Origin: Sphingomonadales bacterium
GTDB taxonomy: Bacteria; Pseudomonadota; Alphaproteobacteria; Sphingomonadales; Sphingomonadaceae
DNA length: 64,000 bases
Direction: 5' to 3'
Assembly: GCA_038230675.1 (NCBI GenBank)
Contig: JBBRMV010000003.1
Span: 33,744-97,743 of the forward strand
In this document: in pieces, positions 41,281 through 48,095 of the stretch
Numbering within the stretch: the stretch's first letter is position 1
How the letters are laid out: every line of letters begins with the position of its first letter
The notes under the pieces: model-generated
The model's database searches: none
Told to the model about the DNA's origin: nothing
Seen by the model: the letters and a program-made list of their open reading frames with translations, nothing else
Program-made: the position numbers and the translations under genes

Positions 41281-41422
41281 GTCGCATCTCCCCTTGCCCG
41301 CGCGGCCCGATCGCGCGCGATATTGTTGTTCCTGCGCTCGTGATATGGCTGCCTTGTTACAGCCAGTTGTGACACAGCCGCGCGCCAATCGATAGCGGCG
41401 CGCAACAAAGGGGGCAAACGGC

Positions 41423-42895
41423 ATGGGGGAGCGGCAACGGATTGCGGCACTTTTTGCCGCTACGCTTGTCGTGCTTTGTCTGTTGGCGTTGGCGCGACCG
41501 ATCGATCATGACGAAAGCCAATATGTCGCGGCCACCGTGCTCGCGTGGCATGGCCTGCCCTATCGCGATTTCGCCTATCTGCAGACGCCGCTCCAGCCGA
41601 TCTTGCTGGCCCCACTTGCGGCGCTGGCGGAGGGGCTCGCTTGGCCGGCGTTGCGGCTCGCAAACGCGCTGTTCGGAACGGTCATGTTGCTGTGCTGTTA
41701 CGGGGCGGCGCGAGAAGCAGGCGCTGGCGAACGTGTGGCGCTCGGCGCCGCTGCGATGCTCGGCTGCAGTGACATCTTGCTCTTCACGGCGGCCGTCGCG
41801 CGAAACGATGCGTTGCCCGGCGCCTGCCTGGCCGGGGCGATATGGCTTGCGATCCGGGCGGCCAATGGCAGGGGAACGACCCGCAGCGCCTTGCTCGCCG
41901 GGCTGCTGCTGGCGGCGGCGGCGGCGGCGAAAATCTCGTTTGCGCTGCCGGCTGCGACCTATGGCATCTGGGCGCTGTTCGACCGGCGTCATCGTCCCGT
42001 CGCGCTGACCGCCGGCGCGCTGCCGATCGCTGCGCTAGTCGCGTGGCTATATGCGCTTGCCCCCGGTGCGTTTGTTTTCGGCGTATTCACCTTTCCGGCA
42101 AAGGCGCCTGCCGAATGGTATCGCAGCGCCAACCCCTGGAAGCTGACGCTTGCCGCCAAGGCGATCGACACGCTGAAATTCCTGGCGCTCGGCCCGGCGC
42201 TGTTCGCGCTGATCATCGTGGCGCGCGACAGGGATCGAGGGGCGACCCCGCTGCTGTTGACGCTGATGATCGCCGCCGGGCTGGTCGCCGCACTGTTGCC
42301 CGAGCCAACGTGGCGGCAATATCTGCTGCCCGTCCTGCCGCCGCTGTTCGTCCAGCTGGCGATGCTATGGCAGCGGCGCCCGCCAGCGCGCGCGGTGCGG
42401 ATCGCGGTCGCGGTGTTCGTCGGCGCCGGCTTTGCAACCACCGCCGAGGGGCTGATCAACGGGCATGGCATGACAATGGCCGATGCCGCCGCCCAGGGTC
42501 GCGCGATCGGCAGGGTCGCGGCGGCTGCCGGCATCGACGGCCCGGTCGCGACATTATCCCCGCAATTCCTGCCAGCGGCGAACCTGCCTATCGACCCGCG
42601 CTTTGCCGCTGGTCCTTATTATTTCAGGACGCGATCGCTGCTCGCACCGGCGCTGGAGCCGCAGTTCGTGCTCATCTCGCGAGAGCGGATCGATTTCGGC
42701 GCAGAGCCACCGGCTGCAATCCTGATCGGCGGCGAAGGACCCTGGACGAGCGGCGATGCCGGCGACGATGCCGCGCTTGAGGGCTTTGCCGTCAGCCATC
42801 ACTGGCACCGGCTCGATATCCCGGGTGGACGGTTTCGCCTTTACACCCCGCCTCAGGCGACTGCGCGCCGCTCGCCAGCCACCAACGCCTCATAA
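41423..42895 (+). CDS. Polytopic membrane protein, probable GT-C (ArnT/PMT-like) glycosyltransferase
   Basis: RPIDHDESQY acidic motif after TM1, YRDFAYLQTPL, AKISF, QYLLP; many TMs. Confidence 0.65.
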   Translation: MGERQRIAALFAATLVVLCLLALARPIDHDESQYVAATVLAWHGLPYRDFAYLQTPLQPILLAPLAALAEGLAWPALRLANALFGTVMLLCCYGAAREAGAGERVALGAAAMLGCSDILLFTAAVARNDALPGACLAGAIWLAIRAANGRGTTRSALLAGLLLAAAAAAKISFALPAATYGIWALFDRRHRPVALTAGALPIAALVAWLYALAPGAFVFGVFTFPAKAPAEWYRSANPWKLTLAAKAIDTLKFLALGPALFALIIVARDRDRGATPLLLTLMIAAGLVAALLPEPTWRQYLLPVLPPLFVQLAMLWQRRPPARAVRIAVAVFVGAGFATTAEGLINGHGMTMADAAAQGRAIGRVAAAAGIDGPVATLSPQFLPAANLPIDPRFAAGPYYFRTRSLLAPALEPQFVLISRERIDFGAEPPAAILIGGEGPWTSGDAGDDAALEGFAVSHHWHRLDIPGGRFRLYTPPQATARRSPATNAS

Positions 42896-44031
42896 TAAGC
42901 CATCAGATCGCGGGTATGCTCGACATCGGTGCGTACCTTGCCCGCCGCCACGATCGCTGCCCGGCGCAGCATCGCGCCATCGCGCGCCACGAATCGTTCG
43001 ATCGCCGCCGCCGCCGATTGTGCATCACGCGCACGGTAAAGCTCTGAACAATGCGGATCGGCGACCTCTGCACAACCGCCCTCGTCAGGCGCGATCAGCG
43101 GCAGGCCCGACGCCATCGCCTCCGACGCGACCAACCCGAAGGGTTCGCCTTCGGAGCCATGGATCAGCGCGTCGCAACTCGCCATGATTCGCGCGAGCCG
43201 CATCCGATCATAGACCGGGCGGAACATCCGGATGTGCGGTGATCCGTTCACCCGACGCTCGATCGCCCGCCGCTCAATACCATCACCGATCAGCAGCAAC
43301 CCGACAGGCAACCCGGCCCCGGCCCGCGAGACCGCGTCGATCACCAGAGGCCAGCGTTTTTCGGGATGGTGCCGCCCAAGTCCCAACAACAGATGCGCGT
43401 CGGGCGGCAGATCACACTGGGCGAGCAACGCCGCACGCAGATTTTCGTCGCGCAAATGGGGTGAAAAATAGCCCTTCTCGATACCCAGCGTCATCGCCGC
43501 GTCGATCCGCACGCCACGCCGGGTCAACCGCTTGTAAAGCGCCGGCCCGTTCGTCACCACCGCATCGAAATGCTCAAGGAAGCGGTTCATGTAGCGGCTG
43601 TACCAGCCAAAGGCGCGTTCGATGCGGTCGGGGCTTGCCACCCCTTCGAACCAGCGTTGCGGATAGGCACCGAGATTGTCGTTGTGCATGAAGAACACCT
43701 TGGCGGCGCTCCCCTGCCACTGGCCGACGATCCAGGCCGGGCGCCACGGCGACGATGCCTCGACGACATTGGGCTTCAGCTCATCGAGCAGCTGCGTGAT
43801 CGGCGCTGCATCCCAGAACAGCCCATAGTTCGAATCGAACGGCAGCGGTGGCGCCTTTACATAGATGATCCGCCCACCGCCCGGCCGCTCCTCGACCGAA
43901 TCGGCAAGTGCCGGCGCAATGACGATCAGTTCATGCCCCATCTCGGCCATGATCGTCATCTTCCGATCGATATAGGTACGCACCCCGCCGCCGGTAGGCG
44001 AATAGAATTCGTTGACGTCGACGATCCGCAT
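42853..44031 (-). CDS. Glycosyltransferase family 4 (GT-B)
   Basis: EFYSPTGGGVRTY, GRHHPEKR, EPFGLVASEAMASGLP (EX7E) motifs. Confidence 0.9.
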   Translation of the reverse strand: MRIVDVNEFYSPTGGGVRTYIDRKMTIMAEMGHELIVIAPALADSVEERPGGGRIIYVKAPPLPFDSNYGLFWDAAPITQLLDELKPNVVEASSPWRPAWIVGQWQGSAAKVFFMHNDNLGAYPQRWFEGVASPDRIERAFGWYSRYMNRFLEHFDAVVTNGPALYKRLTRRGVRIDAAMTLGIEKGYFSPHLRDENLRAALLAQCDLPPDAHLLLGLGRHHPEKRWPLVIDAVSRAGAGLPVGLLLIGDGIERRAIERRVNGSPHIRMFRPVYDRMRLARIMASCDALIHGSEGEPFGLVASEAMASGLPLIAPDEGGCAEVADPHCSELYRARDAQSAAAAIERFVARDGAMLRRAAIVAAGKVRTDVEHTRDLMAYYEALVAGERRAVA

Positions 44032-44037
44032 CAGCCG

Positions 44038-44574
44038 TTACCTGTCCGACTTGATCGGGCCGAAGCCGCTGAAACCGCGCAGATATTGCGCATGGATCGT
44101 CGTGCTGGTCACGCCTGCACCAACGTCGATTTCGGCCATTGCCAGCTTTGGCCGGCCGCGACCCATCTTGCTGTTGCTGGGCAGCCCAGCGCCGTCGACC
44201 CAGAAATTGAACTTGTTCTTGCCGTCCCGGTCATGCGTGAAGAACAGCGCATAATGGCCGGGTCGCGGTGCCTTGATGCACAGCGACACCGCGCCGCTGG
44301 CTGGTGTGTCGGCCCATACACGGCGAAAGAATTTGCCCTCGTTGATAAGGTCCCGGTCATCGCGGAGGAAATCCTGTTCATTGCCCGGATAAAGCTCAAG
44401 CTTCAGCCGGCCTTTGCGGTCCTTCAGCCCGACGATCGTGGCGTCGATCGCAGGACCTTCGCGCGTATCGCACGCAGCGGCATCGCTGCCCAGCGCGCGC
44501 GCATCGGCAGCACCCCCAATCGGCACCGCCAGGGCAAAGCAGGCAAGCGGAACAAGCAAACTACGCGGGATCAT
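44038..44574 (-). CDS. DUF2141 domain secreted protein
   Basis: Signal peptide; GRLKLELY, PRPGHYALFFTHDRDGKNK, DGAGLPSN motifs. Confidence 0.8.
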   Translation of the reverse strand: MIPRSLLVPLACFALAVPIGGAADARALGSDAAACDTREGPAIDATIVGLKDRKGRLKLELYPGNEQDFLRDDRDLINEGKFFRRVWADTPASGAVSLCIKAPRPGHYALFFTHDRDGKNKFNFWVDGAGLPSNSKMGRGRPKLAMAEIDVGAGVTSTTIHAQYLRGFSGFGPIKSDR

Positions 44575-45494
44575 GAACGGTTCCTAAGCAGCGAATACAG
44601 GCTGAACGCGCCAATCAATACGACATGGGTCACCAACGTAAGCGCCGCCGTCATCGCAACAAGATTGGACAGCGCCTGATCTTGCCCGATAAACAGGATC
44701 GCAAAATTGGCGAAAAGAAGGTCTTTGTTCGGCACCAGCGGCAACCGCCACACCAGCAGCCGCCCCGCTGTCAGCAGCAGCCACATCTCGATCGAAACCT
44801 GCGGCATGCCGAAATGCCAGCACACCGCGAGCAGACCGGTGCCGGCAATCAGGCGCAGGCTGTGGACCATGAATATCCACCAGAGCGTGCGCCGGGGCAG
44901 CGAAAAGACGCGCTTTGAAAAGATGAGGAACGGCAAGGACATCGCCATCACCACCACCGTCGATGCAACCAACGTGTTGAACTGCCCCGACGTCAGCAAT
45001 CCATAACCAAAGGGCAGCGACAGCCCGATCATCGCGAGCGTCAGCGTGTTGCTGGAAACCGCCGACAGGATGCTGACATCCTTCACCGCGCCAAAGGGCG
45101 CCGCCACCATCTGCGATCGCTGCCGTGCCCAGGCGTAGAAATACGCCTCGCCGGAATAACCGAGCACCACTTCATTGGCGATCCGCTTCTTGATCAGCGC
45201 GGCCAGGCCCCCGATCGGCACTCCCCACAAACGCCGGAAAATCACGAAATCGCCGACCGGCAGCGAAAAATACACCAGCACAAACGCGATGTAGAACATC
45301 GGATGCCCCGGCACCGACCGCGTCAGCCCTTCCAGCCCCGATCCGAGCAGTTCGCGCGCCAGTCCCAGCACCATCGCAATCGTCAGCAAACCGCCAAGCC
45401 ACATCGGCCAACGGCTCTTGATCGATTCGATCGGTTCAAGCCCGGCAATGTCGGGCGACGACAAAACCGCCGGGTCGGCAAGCTGGGTGCTCAT
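44571..45494 (-). CDS. Integral membrane protein (possibly LPG-synthase/flippase-like TM domain)
   Basis: About 8 TMs; NEVVLGYSGEAYFYAW resembles the N..P...GE..R motif of MprF/LPG-synthase TM regions; weak. Confidence 0.5.
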   Translation of the reverse strand: MSTQLADPAVLSSPDIAGLEPIESIKSRWPMWLGGLLTIAMVLGLARELLGSGLEGLTRSVPGHPMFYIAFVLVYFSLPVGDFVIFRRLWGVPIGGLAALIKKRIANEVVLGYSGEAYFYAWARQRSQMVAAPFGAVKDVSILSAVSSNTLTLAMIGLSLPFGYGLLTSGQFNTLVASTVVVMAMSLPFLIFSKRVFSLPRRTLWWIFMVHSLRLIAGTGLLAVCWHFGMPQVSIEMWLLLTAGRLLVWRLPLVPNKDLLFANFAILFIGQDQALSNLVAMTAALTLVTHVVLIGAFSLYSLLRNRS

Positions 45495-46150
45495 CGAAGC
45501 ACCGTTCCTTCCTGCGGCGCGAAGCGATCAGGATGCGCATCGGCAAAGCCGGCCAGCGTCGCTGCGGCCGAATCGGCGCGGACCAGATGCGGGAAATCGT
45601 CGAGCGGCAGCGCAAACCGGCGAGCGTTATACAGCTGCGGGATCAGCACCACATCGGCGAGATTGGGCGCCTCTCCGCCAAGAAACGGCCCGTCATGCTC
45701 GAGCTGCGTCGCCATCGCCTCAAGCGCTGCAAGCCCGTTTGCGATCCAGTGCCGATACCAATCGTCCTTCGCCGCCTGATCGGCGCCAAACTGCGCCTCG
45801 AGCCGGTTTAGCACGCGCATATTGTCGATCGGATGGGTGTCGGCGGCAATCACCAGCGCCTGCGCTATGACCTGCGCGCGCGCCATCGCGTCGACCGGGA
45901 TCAGGCGCGGATCGGGATAAGTCGCGTCGAGAAAGTCGATGATCGCCAGGCTCTGGATGATCGTGCGCCCGTCGATTTCCAGCGTCGGCACCTGCCCTTG
46001 CGGATTACGCGTGAGATTTTCAGGCGCGAGCTGCTCGGCCGCGACAAGGTTCACGGGAATGCGTTCGTAATCGACGCCCTTAAGGCCAAGCGCGATCCGC
46101 ACCCGGTAACTGGCCGAGGAACGGTAATAATCGTACAAGCGGATCGTCAT
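45491..46150 (-). CDS. maiA: Maleylacetoacetate isomerase / GST zeta class
   Basis: LYDYYRSSASYRVRIAL, NPQGQVPTL, QSLAIIDFL, HPIDNMRVL, LIPQLYNARRF. Confidence 0.9.
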   Translation of the reverse strand: MTIRLYDYYRSSASYRVRIALGLKGVDYERIPVNLVAAEQLAPENLTRNPQGQVPTLEIDGRTIIQSLAIIDFLDATYPDPRLIPVDAMARAQVIAQALVIAADTHPIDNMRVLNRLEAQFGADQAAKDDWYRHWIANGLAALEAMATQLEHDGPFLGGEAPNLADVVLIPQLYNARRFALPLDDFPHLVRADSAAATLAGFADAHPDRFAPQEGTVLR

Positions 46151-47208
46151 CCCGCCTTTACCCCGCCGCGCGGCGGCTCTGCCCCGCGTTGCAGTGCCAC
46201 CTTGATCATCGCGACCATCGGATCGGCAAGTGCCAGGCCGAGGACACCGAACAGCGTGCTGGCCAGGATCTGCGACGACAAGGTGAGCGCCGGCGGCAGA
46301 TCGACCGTGCGGCGCGCAACCATCGGGATGACGACATAGCCGTCGAAATTCTGGACGAGGAAATAGGTGAAGATCGCCCAGTAACCCGTGTTGAGCCCGG
46401 CGCTGAACCCGACCGCGACCATCAGGATACCCGTGACGATCGCGCCGATATTTGGGATGAAGGCGAGCATCCCCGCCAAAATGCCGAGCAGCAGCGCCAT
46501 CGGCACGCCGCCCAGCCACAGCATCAGCCAGATGAGAATGCCCTCTACCAGCATCCCGAGCAGGCGCCCGGCAAGCAGGCGGCGCATCGTATACGCCATC
46601 CGGTCAATCGTGATCGCGAATTCGCCGCGCACGTCCGATGGGATCATCCATTGCAGGCCGCGTTCGTAAAGCCGTGGCTCCATCGCAACGAACAGCCCAA
46701 TGACGAGGATCATCAACAAGCTGGCCACCGCGCCGATCGCCGTGCCGACCCATGAGGTCAGGCGACCAAATGAGCCAAGGGCCTGCTGGATCAGGCCGTT
46801 GATGTCGGCGCGCCCCGGGATCAGCCCGTGCTCCCCTGCCCACAGGATAACCCTGTTGCCCTGCACTTCGAGCGTCGTCCGCAATTGCGCAAACTGATCC
46901 GCTACCTGCACGCCCGTCAGGAAGATCACAGCGACGATAAACACGATCGTCAGCAAGACGACGATTGCCAGGCGCCAGCCTCGCCCGATCGGCAGGACAC
47001 GCCCGAGTAGCCGCACGCCGCCATCAAGCATCGAGGCGAACACCAGCCCGCCAAAGATGATCAGCAGCGGCTGAATAAGCAGGACGACCAGCGCCATCCC
47101 CGCCGCCAGGCCAAGCCACACCGATGCGCGCTTCAACTCCTGACGGATCACCGGATCGCGGACATCGCTTGGGCCCGGGCCCGAGACGACCTCGGCAGGC
47201 TCGACCAT
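46147..47208 (-). CDS. AI-2E family transporter
   Basis: LAFIPNIGA, QNFDGYVVIP, LGLALADP motifs; TAATG overlap with lepB. Confidence 0.88.
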   Translation of the reverse strand: MVEPAEVVSGPGPSDVRDPVIRQELKRASVWLGLAAGMALVVLLIQPLLIIFGGLVFASMLDGGVRLLGRVLPIGRGWRLAIVVLLTIVFIVAVIFLTGVQVADQFAQLRTTLEVQGNRVILWAGEHGLIPGRADINGLIQQALGSFGRLTSWVGTAIGAVASLLMILVIGLFVAMEPRLYERGLQWMIPSDVRGEFAITIDRMAYTMRRLLAGRLLGMLVEGILIWLMLWLGGVPMALLLGILAGMLAFIPNIGAIVTGILMVAVGFSAGLNTGYWAIFTYFLVQNFDGYVVIPMVARRTVDLPPALTLSSQILASTLFGVLGLALADPMVAMIKVALQRGAEPPRGGVKAG

Positions 47209-48095
47209 TACCGGCTCTGGCTCGGATGCAATGATGTGCCAGCACGACCGCCGCGGAGCGATCCGGGCCAGGTCAGCGGGTTCCAGCTCGCGCTGCCATC
47301 GACCGAGAAGGTGATGAATTCGGCGCGTCCGCCCAGATTTTCCCACGGCACCGGTCCGCCAAGGCCGAGATTGGCGATCGAGAACCGACTATCGGCGCTG
47401 CGATCGCGGTTGTCGCCCATCAGGAAGACGTGGTTGGCCGGGATGGTGACCGGCCCATAGAAATCGCCCTCGCTGCGGCCAAGCTCGACGGTGTCGTATG
47501 TGCGGCCATTGGGCAGCGTTTCGGTCACGATAGGCAGATAGCAATACAGCTTGCCATCGGGGCCCGTGCGACGCGCCTCGCCATATTCGCTCGGTTCGCA
47601 GCGGGCATTCTGATCGACGGGGATGATCTTGTCGTGGATAGGGCCGCGTGTCAGCGGCACGTCGTTCAGGATGACGACGCCGTCGCGCACTTCCAGCCGA
47701 TCGCCGGGCAGCCCGATCACCCGCTTGATGTAATCCTCGTTCTTGCCCGGGGGTGCAACAATGACGACATCGCCACGCACGGGCAGCCTTCCGAACAGCC
47801 GACCGTGAAAGAACGGCAGGAGATGGAAAGTCGGCGAAACGAACGAATATCCATAGGGATATTTCGTCACCACCAGCCGATCGCCGACGAGAAGGCCCGG
47901 CAGCATCGATTCCGACGGAATGTAGAAGGGCTTTGCGATGAAGCTGTGGAAGCCCAGCACCGCCAATATCAGCCAGAAAATGCCGCGTGCCTCGGCGAAC
48001 CAGTCGGTGTTCGATCTTGTGGGCGGCGAAGCGGGTTTATCTCCCGGCTTCTCGCTGTCGATGCCACCGTCCAACGCCAACTCCTCGCCCGTCAT
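47208..48095 (-). CDS. lepB: Signal peptidase I
   Basis: [12 protein letters not shown] (Ser), [12 protein letters not shown] (Lys), [14 protein letters not shown]. Confidence 0.96.

What the first reader, a model, noticed from the sequence alone, without database searches (positions are those of the whole stretch)
41423..45494. Candidate glycosphingolipid synthesis/modification locus (flippase-like, DUF2141, GT4, convergent GT-C)
Seen: membrane protein-DUF2141-GT4 are tightly linked on the minus strand, and a GT-C-like gene converges with a 43-bp 3' overlap. Established: characterised alphaproteobacterial ceramide glycosyltransferases (Zymomonas/Sphingobium Cer-GlcAT, Caulobacter Sgt1) are GT4 enzymes, and later steps of sphingomonad glycosphingolipid assembly and export are poorly defined. 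Inference: GT4 makes a cytoplasmic glycolipid, the membrane protein flips it, and DUF2141/GT-C act in the periplasm.
Basis: inference. Interest (0 to 1): 0.55.

Follow-up and report, generated by a model that had tools for sequence, protein, structure and literature searches.

The report
Accessory glycosphingolipid sugar-adding and flipping locus
This Sphingomonas gene set (a sugar-adding enzyme, a small exported protein, a lipid-flippase-shaped membrane protein and a facing membrane glycosyltransferase) occurs only in sphingolipid-making bacteria, so it most likely decorates and flips the outer-membrane glycosphingolipid rather than making its first sugar.

Summary
Four real genes sit at 41423-45494: a GT-C-type membrane glycosyltransferase (+ strand) converging with a 43-bp overlap on a minus-strand GT4 / DUF2141 / 307-aa membrane-protein string.

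- The GT4 is not the ceramide glucuronosyltransferase. The characterised Zymomonas enzyme (AAV90581.1, recovered letter for letter) is 24% identical to it, but 59% identical to another GT4 of this genome on contig C17.
- The window GT4 belongs to a separate clade ("GT4p"), closest to GpgS, the GlcNAc-phosphatidylglycerol synthase.
- The membrane protein has no Pfam match, but its model superposes on the MprF flippase domain (Z 15-17; next best 7).
- The trio is syntenic in 74 of 80 Sphingomonas loci and in 11 other genera.
- In a 301-genome class sample, the flippase-like gene occurs in 8 genomes. All 8 have a strong serine-palmitoyltransferase match; for the 5 outside Sphingomonadales I confirmed it above the curated cut-off. 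GT4p occurs only within those 8.
- In a distant alphaproteobacterium the same genes lie inside an spt-cerR-lptFG cluster.
- Zymomonas, whose characterised enzyme makes glucuronosylceramide, lacks the module.

Best reading: an accessory glycosphingolipid extension-and-flipping module. The substrate and the sugar are inferred, not shown. The scan found this locus type before on another genome (e1-5259001), with a similar reading.

The parts
41423..42895 (+). GT-C-type (PMT_2/GT39/GT87-like) polytopic membrane glycosyltransferase, 490 aa. It converges on the GT4 gene with a 43-bp 3' overlap.
   Evidence: ORF. Homologues are named GT39/DUF2029/ArnT-like and carry PF13231, PF09594 or PF02366. D28-H-D-E31 is invariant after TM1, and about 8 hydrophobic segments are seen. 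A gene of this type occupies this slot in 35 of 71 Sphingomonas loci; a second PMT_2-like type occupies it in 24 of 71.
42853..44031 (-). GT4 glycosyltransferase 'GT4p', 392 aa and cytoplasmic. It is a member of the GpgS-like lipid-headgroup GT4 superclade, but is neither GpgS nor Cer-GlcAT.
   Evidence: Pfam GT4 domains. NF053787 GpgS scores 183 bits over the full length, against a cut-off of 480; the next family scores 52 bits. It is 24% identical to Zymomonas Cer-GlcAT. It forms its own clade with SH-aLRT 100. In the class sample it is found only in genomes that also have the flippase-like gene.
44038..44574 (-). Exported DUF2141 protein, 178 aa, with an N-terminal signal peptide. It is a beta-sandwich with a conserved Cys35/Cys99 pair and a T-H-D-R-D motif.
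   Evidence: PF09912 scores 50.5 bits. Alignment A4 gives the invariant residues. The model has pLDDT 86. It has a generic beta-sandwich fold with best Z 6.9. It lies next to the flippase-like gene in 75 of 80 loci.
44571..45494 (-). 307-aa inner-membrane protein of a family without a Pfam model, with an MprF-flippase-domain fold. It is the candidate glycolipid flippase.
   Evidence: None of 86 family members has a Pfam hit. The model has pLDDT 89.4. In Foldseek only MprF entries stand out, at TM 0.52-0.56. VIA-align gives Z 15.3-17.0 over 273-278 residues against the MprF flippase domain, with the next best at 7.2. The family has 597 representative clusters.

Best explanation
This is an accessory module for decorating and translocating a glycosphingolipid. 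The first sugar (glucuronic acid on ceramide) is added by a different, family-wide GT4, here called 'GT4a', the orthologue of Zymomonas Cer-GlcAT. In this genome that gene is split across the ends of contigs C21 and C17.

Inferred steps:
1. The window's cytoplasmic GT4 ('GT4p') adds a further sugar to that lipid, or to a related sphingolipid, on the inner leaflet. Its nearest characterised relative uses a GlcNAc donor, which would fit the glucosamine that sits second in the known Sphingomonas GSL-3 and GSL-4.
2. The MprF-fold membrane protein flips the product to the periplasmic leaflet.
3. The exported DUF2141 beta-sandwich acts there as a binding or hand-off factor, possibly towards LptFG.
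4. The convergent GT-C enzyme adds a species-variable outer sugar from a polyprenyl-phosphate donor.

What is shown: the gene identities, the flippase fold, the synteny, the restriction to spt-positive genomes, the linkage to sphingolipid genes, and non-orthology to Cer-GlcAT. What is inferred: the substrate, the sugar, the direction of flipping, and the roles of DUF2141 and GT-C.
For: (1) Synteny. The flippase-like gene, DUF2141 and GT4p lie together in 74 of 80 Sphingomonas loci, in 11 of 11 other Sphingomonadaceae genera and in one further family.

(2) Sphingolipid restriction. In a 301-genome class sample, the flippase-like family occurs in 8 genomes. All 8 are among the at most 41 genomes with a strong Spt-like hit. 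The five that lie outside Sphingomonadales have Spt above the NF047599 cut-off (581-627 bits against 500). GT4p occurs in 6 of 301 genomes, all within those 8.

(3) Physical linkage. In genome G826 (another order) the gene order is GT4a, GT4p, GT2, ATP-grasp, flippase-like, LptF, LptG, DUF2141, acyl-AMP ligase, CerR-like epimerase, Spt. GT4a-GT4p tandems also occur in G710, G853 and G873. In more distant lineages the flippase-like gene lies next to GT4a and/or LptFG.

(4) GT4a is Cer-GlcAT. The Zymomonas orthologue is letter for letter AAV90581.1. GT4a is present in 55 of 56 Sphingomonadaceae genera at 48-66% identity.

(5) GT4p belongs to the lipid-headgroup GT4 superclade together with GpgS and GT4a.

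(6) The membrane protein has the MprF flippase fold.

(7) Zymomonas, whose Cer-GlcAT is the characterised glucuronosylceramide synthase, lacks both the flippase-like gene and GT4p. The module is also present in only 55 of 174 Sphingomonadaceae, so it is accessory rather than core.

(8) Higher glycosphingolipids with extra sugars, including glucosamine, are known in this family (PMC4018217), and their glycosyltransferases are still unknown (PMC13028669).
Against: There is no biochemical or genetic evidence for any step.

The nearest curated family is a phosphatidylglycerol-modifying enzyme, and the tree places GT4p slightly nearer to GpgS than to Cer-GlcAT (SH-aLRT 85, quick tree only).

No deacetylase lies in the locus. 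GpgD/DUF2334 was not found in this genome, and the only PIG-L gene sits on a 2.3-kb contig. A GlcNAc-to-GlcN route is therefore incomplete.

This genome lacks the second GT4 ('GT4b') that flanks the module in 68 of 76 Sphingomonas loci, so its product may differ from that of typical strains.

The GT-C link holds only within the genus Sphingomonas. The flippase fold comes from a predicted model with no detectable sequence homology (hhalign probability 0.07). Related genomes are not independent samples. Caulobacter Sgt2 could not be compared.
Confidence: 0.6

Rival explanations
1. This is a GpgSDF-like system acting on a glycerophospholipid. The GT4 glycosylates phosphatidylglycerol (or a similar lipid), the MprF-fold protein flips it, and the result changes envelope charge. 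The association with sphingolipid producers would be only phylogenetic.
For: The best curated match of the GT4 is GpgS, at 183 bits over the full length. The tree groups GT4p with the GpgS clade with SH-aLRT 85. The GT4 plus MprF-type flippase architecture matches gpgSDF (PMC12713373; true loci L100, L103 and L104). Natural gpgS-gpgF pairs without a deacetylase exist (L101, L102).
Against: The score is far below the curated cut-off of 480. Two other paralogues of the same genome score similarly (219 and 158 bits), and one of them is the Cer-GlcAT orthologue, so the hit marks a superclade rather than a substrate. The flippase-like family and GT4p were found only in spt-positive genomes. They lie beside Cer-GlcAT-type GT4a, spt, cerR and lptFG in distant lineages.
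Confidence: 0.15
2. This is a phosphate-starvation glycolipid module. The GT4 makes a phosphorus-free glycosyl-diacylglycerol or glycosphingolipid under Pho control, as with Caulobacter sgt1/sgt2 and Agrobacterium Pgt. The neighbouring PhoD would reflect shared regulation.
For: PhoD, with a Tat signal, diverges from the GT-C gene across 141 bp, and lies within 6.5 kb downstream of the flippase-like gene in 28 of 80 loci. A conserved CTGTCAC-containing repeat lies upstream of phoD. Caulobacter sgt1 and sgt2 are PhoB-regulated GT4 genes (PMC6445935).
Against: The repeat sits in the phoD promoter. It is spaced 15 bp rather than the 11 bp I recall for Pho boxes, and it is not consistently found upstream of the flippase-like operon. 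In this window the operon is preceded by GST and housekeeping genes. PhoD adjacency is absent from most loci. This reading concerns regulation and is compatible with the best explanation.
Confidence: 0.1
3. The module acts on a non-sphingolipid isoprenoid lipid, such as a carotenoid or hopanoid glycoside. DUF2141 would serve as a periplasmic carrier for hydrophobic pigments.
For: DUF2141 genes are co-located with crtG in many Sphingomonadales (PMC5989583, PMC9241875). This genome has two further DUF2141 genes.
Against: No crt or hpn genes lie in or near the locus in the window or in the 100 or so related loci compared. The DUF2141 in this locus is a distinct orthologue group that travels with GT4p and the flippase-like gene. 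GT4p clusters with lipid-headgroup GT4s.
Confidence: 0.05

Closest known systems
GpgSDF of Pseudomonas aeruginosa (glucosaminyl-phosphatidylglycerol synthesis; PMC12713373) and the analogous HexSDF of Clostridioides difficile
   Same: A cytoplasmic GT4 of the same superclade (GpgS is the best curated match) is encoded together with an MprF-flippase-fold membrane protein in a three-gene string. The logic is the same: glycosylate a membrane lipid inside, then flip it.
   Different: The GT4 scores 183 bits against a cut-off of 480. The middle gene is an exported DUF2141 beta-sandwich rather than a DUF2334 deacetylase. The flippase-like protein has no PF03706 match and no profile similarity to GpgF. 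Gene order is reversed. The module is restricted to sphingolipid producers and linked to spt, Cer-GlcAT and lptFG.
Cer-GlcAT (Zymomonas mobilis AAV90581.1, Sphingobium yanoikuyae ATI80198.1) and Caulobacter Sgt1
   Same: It is a GT4 enzyme of the same broad lipid-headgroup superclade and occurs in the same organisms. In four distant genomes it is encoded in tandem with the Cer-GlcAT orthologue.
   Different: It is 24% identical (54 bits) to the characterised enzyme. The true orthologue (59%, 441 bits) lies elsewhere in this genome. The window GT4 is absent from Zymomonas and from about two thirds of Sphingomonadaceae.
Caulobacter Sgt2 (second-sugar sphingolipid glycosyltransferase; PMC6445935)
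   Same: It is a GT4 of similar length (392 against 394 aa). It lies in tandem with a first-sugar GT4 in some genomes, as sgt2 does with sgt1, and the expected role of adding a sugar after GlcA-Cer is the same.
   Different: The two could not be compared directly, because no Sgt2 sequence was obtainable with the tools. No match to the window GT4 at E<=1e-40 was found in the other spt-positive genomes of the class sample, so close orthology is doubtful.
Mycobacterial phosphatidylinositol-mannoside pathway (PimA/PimB' GT4 enzymes, unknown flippase, PimE GT-C/GT87)
   Same: Cytoplasmic GT4 steps on a membrane lipid are followed by flipping and then by a periplasmic GT-C step. PimA is among the best solved-structure matches of the GT4, and orthologues of the GT-C hit GT87, which is PimE's family.
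   Different: The lipid anchor and the organisms differ, and the similarity is only in architecture and superfamily.
MprF flippase domain (PDB 6lvf, 7duw, 7f47, 9goe)
   Same: The predicted fold matches over about 275 of 307 residues (Z 15.3-17.0).
   Different: Sequence identity is 11-13%. There is no Pfam PF03706 match and no fused aminoacyl-PG synthase domain. The protein stands alone.

Membership tests
Ceramide glucuronosyltransferase (Cer-GlcAT / Sgt1 group) | Orthology to a characterised enzyme. Published cross-genus identity is 62-69%, Sgt1-type paralogues are about 40-45% identical, and the hit should be a reciprocal best hit. | tested here: not met
   AAV90581.1 (P0401, exact match) against the window GT4 gives 24% identity and 54 bits. 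Its best hit in this genome is C17:4-1053 at 60% and 478 bits, and the window GT4 ranks third at 39.6 bits.
Ceramide glucuronosyltransferase (Cer-GlcAT / Sgt1 group) | Transfer of GlcA from UDP-GlcA to ceramide. | not testable with these tools
   This needs an enzyme assay or lipidomics.
GpgS, N-acetylglucosaminyl phosphatidylglycerol synthase (NCBIfam NF053787) | Score at or above the curated equivalog cut-off of 480 bits. | tested here: not met
   The score is 183.2 bits, aligned over the full length (1-382 against 1-358 of 361). True GpgS proteins score 533-624 bits.
gpgSDF-type operon | An adjacent DUF2334/COG3233 deacetylase (GpgD). | tested here: not met
   The middle gene is DUF2141. 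PF10096 has no match in this genome, which is 95% complete.
LPG_synthase_TM / UPF0104 flippase family (Pfam PF03706; GpgF, MprF N-terminal domain) | A sequence match to the family model. | tested here: not met
   None of 86 family members has a Pfam hit at E<=0.01. hhalign against five true GpgF proteins gives probability 0.07. The Atlas gives only a 0.87 lead.
LPG_synthase_TM / UPF0104 flippase family (Pfam PF03706; GpgF, MprF N-terminal domain) | The MprF flippase-domain fold. | tested here: met
   The model has pLDDT 89.4. Against MprF structures Z is 15.3-17.0, rmsd 4.7-5.0 A, with 273-278 residues aligned. The next unrelated chain scores Z 7.2.
DUF2141 (Pfam PF09912) | Score above the gathering threshold. 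| tested here: met
   50.5 bits against 24.4, covering residues 46-157 over profile positions 2-110 of 112.
GT-C superfamily (PMT_2 / GT39 / GT87 type) | A match to a GT-C family model. | tested here: inconclusive
   The window protein itself gives only PMT at E 0.05, 13.6 bits against a cut-off of 22.7. Of 31 orthologues at 54-74% identity, 11 hit PMT_2, 10 PMT, 5 GT87 and 2 AftD GT-C.
GT-C superfamily (PMT_2 / GT39 / GT87 type) | A polytopic membrane protein with a conserved acidic motif in the first periplasmic loop. | tested here: met
   D28-H29-D30-E31 is invariant in 31 sequences directly after TM1. About 8 hydrophobic segments lie in the N-terminal 345 residues.
Caulobacter Sgt2-type sphingolipid glycosyltransferase | Sequence orthology to ACL94257.2. 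| not tested
   No tool gave access to the Sgt2 sequence. Indirectly, no hit at E<=1e-40 was found in spt-positive genomes that lack the flippase-like gene.

The most novel reading that the evidence does not exclude
The Pfam-less MprF-fold protein and DUF2141 together form a previously unrecognised, sphingolipid-specific export branch. The flippase-like protein would move glycosylated ceramides across the inner membrane. The exported DUF2141 module would dock them onto LptFG. This would be the same kind of role as the DUF2141 domain of Bacteroides LptZ, which binds LptF and LptG, and it would make DUF2141 a general Lpt-accessory lipid hand-off domain in sphingolipid-producing Gram-negative bacteria.
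Probability: 0.2. Interest if true: 0.8.

Novelty: new variant of a known kind. Interest (0 to 1): 0.6.

Why it matters
Sphingomonads replace lipopolysaccharide with glycosphingolipids, some of which activate natural killer T cells. Only the first glycosyltransferase is known. Recent papers state that the enzymes which extend the glycan are unidentified (PMC13028669), and I found no paper that identifies how these lipids cross the inner membrane.

This locus supplies specific, testable candidates for three functions: a second-step GT4, a dedicated flippase of a family with no Pfam model, and variable periplasmic GT-C enzymes. It also gives the first consistent genomic context for DUF2141, and links that domain to LptFG. 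In addition, the work places the true Cer-GlcAT orthologue of this genome on contigs C17/C21.

Tried and rejected
- Sequence route to the flippase family. Pfam and NCBIfam on the protein and on 86 relatives, a profile search of PDB sequences, and hhalign against true GpgF all gave nothing. Only the fold comparison worked.
- The search for related loci with the 86-sequence alignment failed because no stretch was conserved enough. It worked with 20 closer sequences.
- A GpgS-like GT4 of another alphaproteobacterial family (f17) seemed at first to be linked to spt. Its neighbour is an ordinary aminotransferase, and that family has no close GT4a or GT4p, so this was dropped.
- Four PF00155 candidates in this genome were not Spt; two of them are ALA synthases. 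Spt was then found with NF047603 on contig C9.
- The NF047603 search at E<=1e-100 also rings in E. coli, so 41 of 301 is only an upper bound for Spt. The five key genomes were confirmed with NF047599.
- DUF2141 as a deacetylase: the fold searches show only generic beta-sandwiches with Z up to 6.9, so an enzyme role has no support.
- Pho-box search: TGTCAC-N9-TGTCAC occurs upstream of phoD in a few loci but not consistently before the operon.
- The Okino 2020 and Kinjo 2008 papers are not held.
- The GT-C profile has no solved-structure sequence relative.
- The careful tree did not finish in the time allowed, so only the quick tree is reported.

Full report
**Observation.** The window holds four ORFs exactly as described:
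- 41423-42895 (+, 490 aa)
- 42853-44031 (-, 392 aa)
- 44038-44574 (-, 178 aa)
- 44571-45494 (-, 307 aa)

The convergent pair overlaps by 43 bp. The three minus-strand genes are packed tightly, with a 4-bp overlap and a 6-bp gap. An upstream GST gene ends 4 bp inside the start of the membrane gene. Pfam confirms GT4 and DUF2141. The 490-aa and 307-aa proteins have no significant Pfam or NCBIfam match.

**The GT-C gene.** Homologues of the 490-aa protein (54-77% identical) are named GT39, DUF2029 or ArnT-like. Of 31 of them, 11 hit PMT_2, 10 PMT, 5 GT87 and 2 the AftD GT-C domain. An invariant D-H-D-E motif follows the first membrane helix. 'GT-C-like' is therefore justified.

**The membrane protein.**
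- It belongs to a family of 597 representative clusters. None of 86 diverse members matches any Pfam model.
- A profile of the family finds no solved structure by sequence and shows no similarity to five true GpgF proteins (hhalign probability 0.07).
- An AlphaFold model built on the 86-sequence alignment is confident (pLDDT 89.4).
- In Foldseek only MprF entries stand out (TM 0.52-0.56, all others below 0.25).
- In VIA-align the MprF flippase domain gives Z 15.3-17.0 over 273-278 residues, against 7.2 for the next chain.

It is therefore a stand-alone protein with the MprF-flippase fold and a sequence diverged beyond detection.

**DUF2141.** The protein has a signal peptide, a conserved cysteine pair and a conserved T-H-D-R-D motif. 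Its model (pLDDT 86) is a generic beta-sandwich with no specific structural relative; the best Z is 6.9, to pilotins and transthyretin-like domains. Nothing supports an enzyme fold. The literature knows DUF2141 only in two settings. It is a crtG neighbour in Sphingomonadales (PMC5989583, PMC9241875). It is also the C-terminal domain of Bacteroides LptZ, which binds LptF, LptG, LptD and LptE (bioRxiv 10.64898/2026.10.02.756314).

**The GT4.**
- Its best curated family is GpgS, the GlcNAc-phosphatidylglycerol synthase of Pseudomonas aeruginosa (PMC12713373). The score is 183 bits over the full length, far below the 480-bit cut-off but well above the next family at 52 bits.
- The genome has two more GT4s that score similarly against this model: C6 at 219 bits and C17 at 158 bits. 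The hit therefore marks a superclade of lipid-headgroup GT4s, not a substrate.
- A quick maximum-likelihood tree resolves separate clades: the window type (GT4p, SH-aLRT 100), the C17 type (GT4a, 99), true and near GpgS (99), and a fourth type (GT4b). GT4p, GpgS and C6 group together with support 85, as sister to GT4a.

- GT4a is present in 55 of 56 Sphingomonadaceae genera at 48-66% identity, with second copies at 46-49% in five genomes. This matches the published pattern for Cer-GlcAT and 'Sgt1b' (PMC13318209, Table S8).
- One of these genomes has a 2.02-Mb chromosome with 45.8% GC. Its GT4a is letter for letter AAV90581.1, the Zymomonas mobilis ZM4 enzyme, which PMC13318209 cites as the characterised glucuronosyltransferase of Okino et al. 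2020.
- That protein is 24% identical (54 bits) to the window GT4, but 59% identical (441 bits) to the C17 gene.
- In this genome its best hit is C17:4-1053, with the first 28 residues on the end of contig C21. The window GT4 ranks third.

The window GT4 is therefore not the ceramide glucuronosyltransferase.

**Conservation of the locus.**
- Among 80 named loci, all Sphingomonas, 74 carry the flippase-like gene, DUF2141 and GT4p in the same order.
- Of the 71 loci with enough flanking DNA, 35 have the window's type of GT-C in the convergent slot. Another 24 have a second type that the protein Atlas places with PMT_2/ArnT proteins (score 0.99-1.0).
- Of the 76 loci with enough upstream DNA, 68 have an extra GT4b upstream. 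This genome lacks GT4b.
- Six loci are partial. Four of them keep only the flippase-like gene and the GT-C.
- The trio is also intact in 11 of 11 other genera of the family and in one other family.
- Across the order, the flippase-like gene is in 108 of 301 genomes, in 20 of 22 genomes of the same genus, and in 55 of 174 genomes of the family. It is therefore accessory.

**Link to sphingolipids.**
- In a 301-genome sample spread over the families of the class, the flippase-like family occurs in 8 genomes.
- All 8 are among the at most 41 genomes with a strong Spt-like match. That count is an upper bound, because E. coli also rings at this threshold.
- The five members outside Sphingomonadales carry a serine palmitoyltransferase above the curated NF047599 cut-off (581-627 bits). 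Two are labelled Emcibacter and Iodidimonas in public records.
- GT4p occurs in 6 of the 301 genomes, all within the 8. GT4a occurs in those 8 plus one more sphingomonad.
- In genome G826 one stretch of about 15 kb reads: GT4a, GT4p (40% identical to the window GT4), GT2, ATP-grasp, flippase-like, LptF, LptG, DUF2141, acyl-AMP ligase, CerR-like epimerase, Spt.
- GT4a-GT4p tandems recur in three further genomes.
- In more distant lineages the flippase-like gene sits beside GT4a and/or LptFG.
- In this genome spt, a CerR-like gene, lptF and lptG are adjacent on contig C9.
- Zymomonas, whose Cer-GlcAT is the characterised glucuronosylceramide synthase, has no match to the flippase-like profile and no GT4p orthologue.

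**Interpretation.**
- The shown facts fit an accessory module that acts on a glycosphingolipid after the first sugar. A cytoplasmic GT4 would add a further sugar, an MprF-fold protein would flip the product, and periplasmic DUF2141 and GT-C would act afterwards. The GT-C slot varies between species.
- The logic resembles gpgSDF and hexSDF, and the GT4, flippase, GT-C order of mycobacterial PIM synthesis.
- Higher Sphingomonas glycosphingolipids (GSL-3 and GSL-4) carry additional sugars including glucosamine (PMC4018217). From my own knowledge, the second sugar of GSL-4A is alpha-GlcN and the terminal sugar is alpha-1,2-Man. These would suit a GpgS-like GlcNAc transferase and a GT87/PMT-type GT-C. 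This is inference, and no deacetylase is present in the locus.
- Rival readings are kept at lower weight: a phosphatidylglycerol-directed system, a Pho-regulated phosphorus-free lipid module, and an isoprenoid glycoside system.

**Limits.**
- No experiment was done.
- Caulobacter Sgt2 could not be obtained for comparison.
- The tree is the quick version.
- Related genomes are not independent samples.
- The flippase assignment rests on a predicted structure.
- An earlier agent of this scan examined the same locus type in another genome (e1-5259001) and reached a similar reading. I treat that as a repeat, not as independent support.

Noticed in passing
G000 contigs C17:4-1053 and C21:3-86 (outside the window): The true Cer-GlcAT orthologue of this genome (59-60% identical to Zymomonas AAV90581.1) is split across two contig ends. 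Its first 28 residues lie on C21.
   Followed up: yes
G000 contig C9:32528-40182 (outside the window): A CerR-like epimerase, Spt (815 bits on NF047603), LptF, LptG and a conserved 416-aa protein are adjacent. Sphingolipid synthesis genes therefore sit directly beside the Lpt permease in an organism that replaces LPS with glycosphingolipid.
   Followed up: partly
L128 and L142 (genome G826, contig C19:298300-320000): A distant alphaproteobacterium has one cluster reading GT4a, GT4p, GT2, TupA-like ATP-grasp, flippase-like, LptF, LptG, DUF2141, acyl-AMP ligase, CerR-like, Spt. This looks like a complete glycosphingolipid synthesis and export island.
   Followed up: partly
L012:5701-6954 (-), L026:5718-6812 (-) and 66 other Sphingomonas loci: A further GT4 ('GT4b') lies just upstream of the flippase-like gene in 68 of 76 Sphingomonas loci. 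It is missing from this window and from this genome, where the best relative is 40% identical on contig C5.
   Followed up: partly
L026:9596-11143 (-) and 23 other loci: A second, unrelated-looking PMT_2/ArnT-like membrane protein (515 aa, no Pfam hit) occupies the same convergent slot as the window's GT-C in the S. elodea / S. trueperi group. This suggests a variable glycan-tip position.
   Followed up: partly
window 41282-41422; L012:11174, L013:11186: The 141-bp region between phoD (Tat signal, true start 41281) and the GT-C gene holds a conserved CTGTCAC-type direct repeat about 60 bp upstream of phoD. The period is 15 bp. It may be a Pho-box variant.
   Followed up: partly
L101:3951-6108 and L102:3981-6114 (genomes G556, G377): True gpgS genes (599-610 bits) are followed directly by a PF03706 flippase gene with no gpgD deacetylase between them. 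This is a natural two-gene variant of gpgSDF.
   Followed up: no
L093-L099 (alphaproteobacterial family f17): GT4 proteins score 394-443 bits on the GpgS model, just under the 480 cut-off, in 6 of 9 genomes of one family. Their function is unknown and their neighbours are unrelated.
   Followed up: partly
G000 contigs C55:7747-8220 (-) and C57:5134-5667 (+): The genome holds two more DUF2141 genes. They are too diverged to be found by BLASTP with the window copy.
   Followed up: no
G000 contig C68:1647-2027: The only PIG-L family deacetylase of the genome lies on a 2.3-kb contig. It is a possible missing de-N-acetylase, but its context is unknown.
   Followed up: no
window 45491-46519 (-): The GST ORF is over-extended. 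The GST domain starts at residue 124, and the long ORF overlaps the end of the AI-2E transporter gene (46147-47346). The real start is probably near 46150.
   Followed up: no
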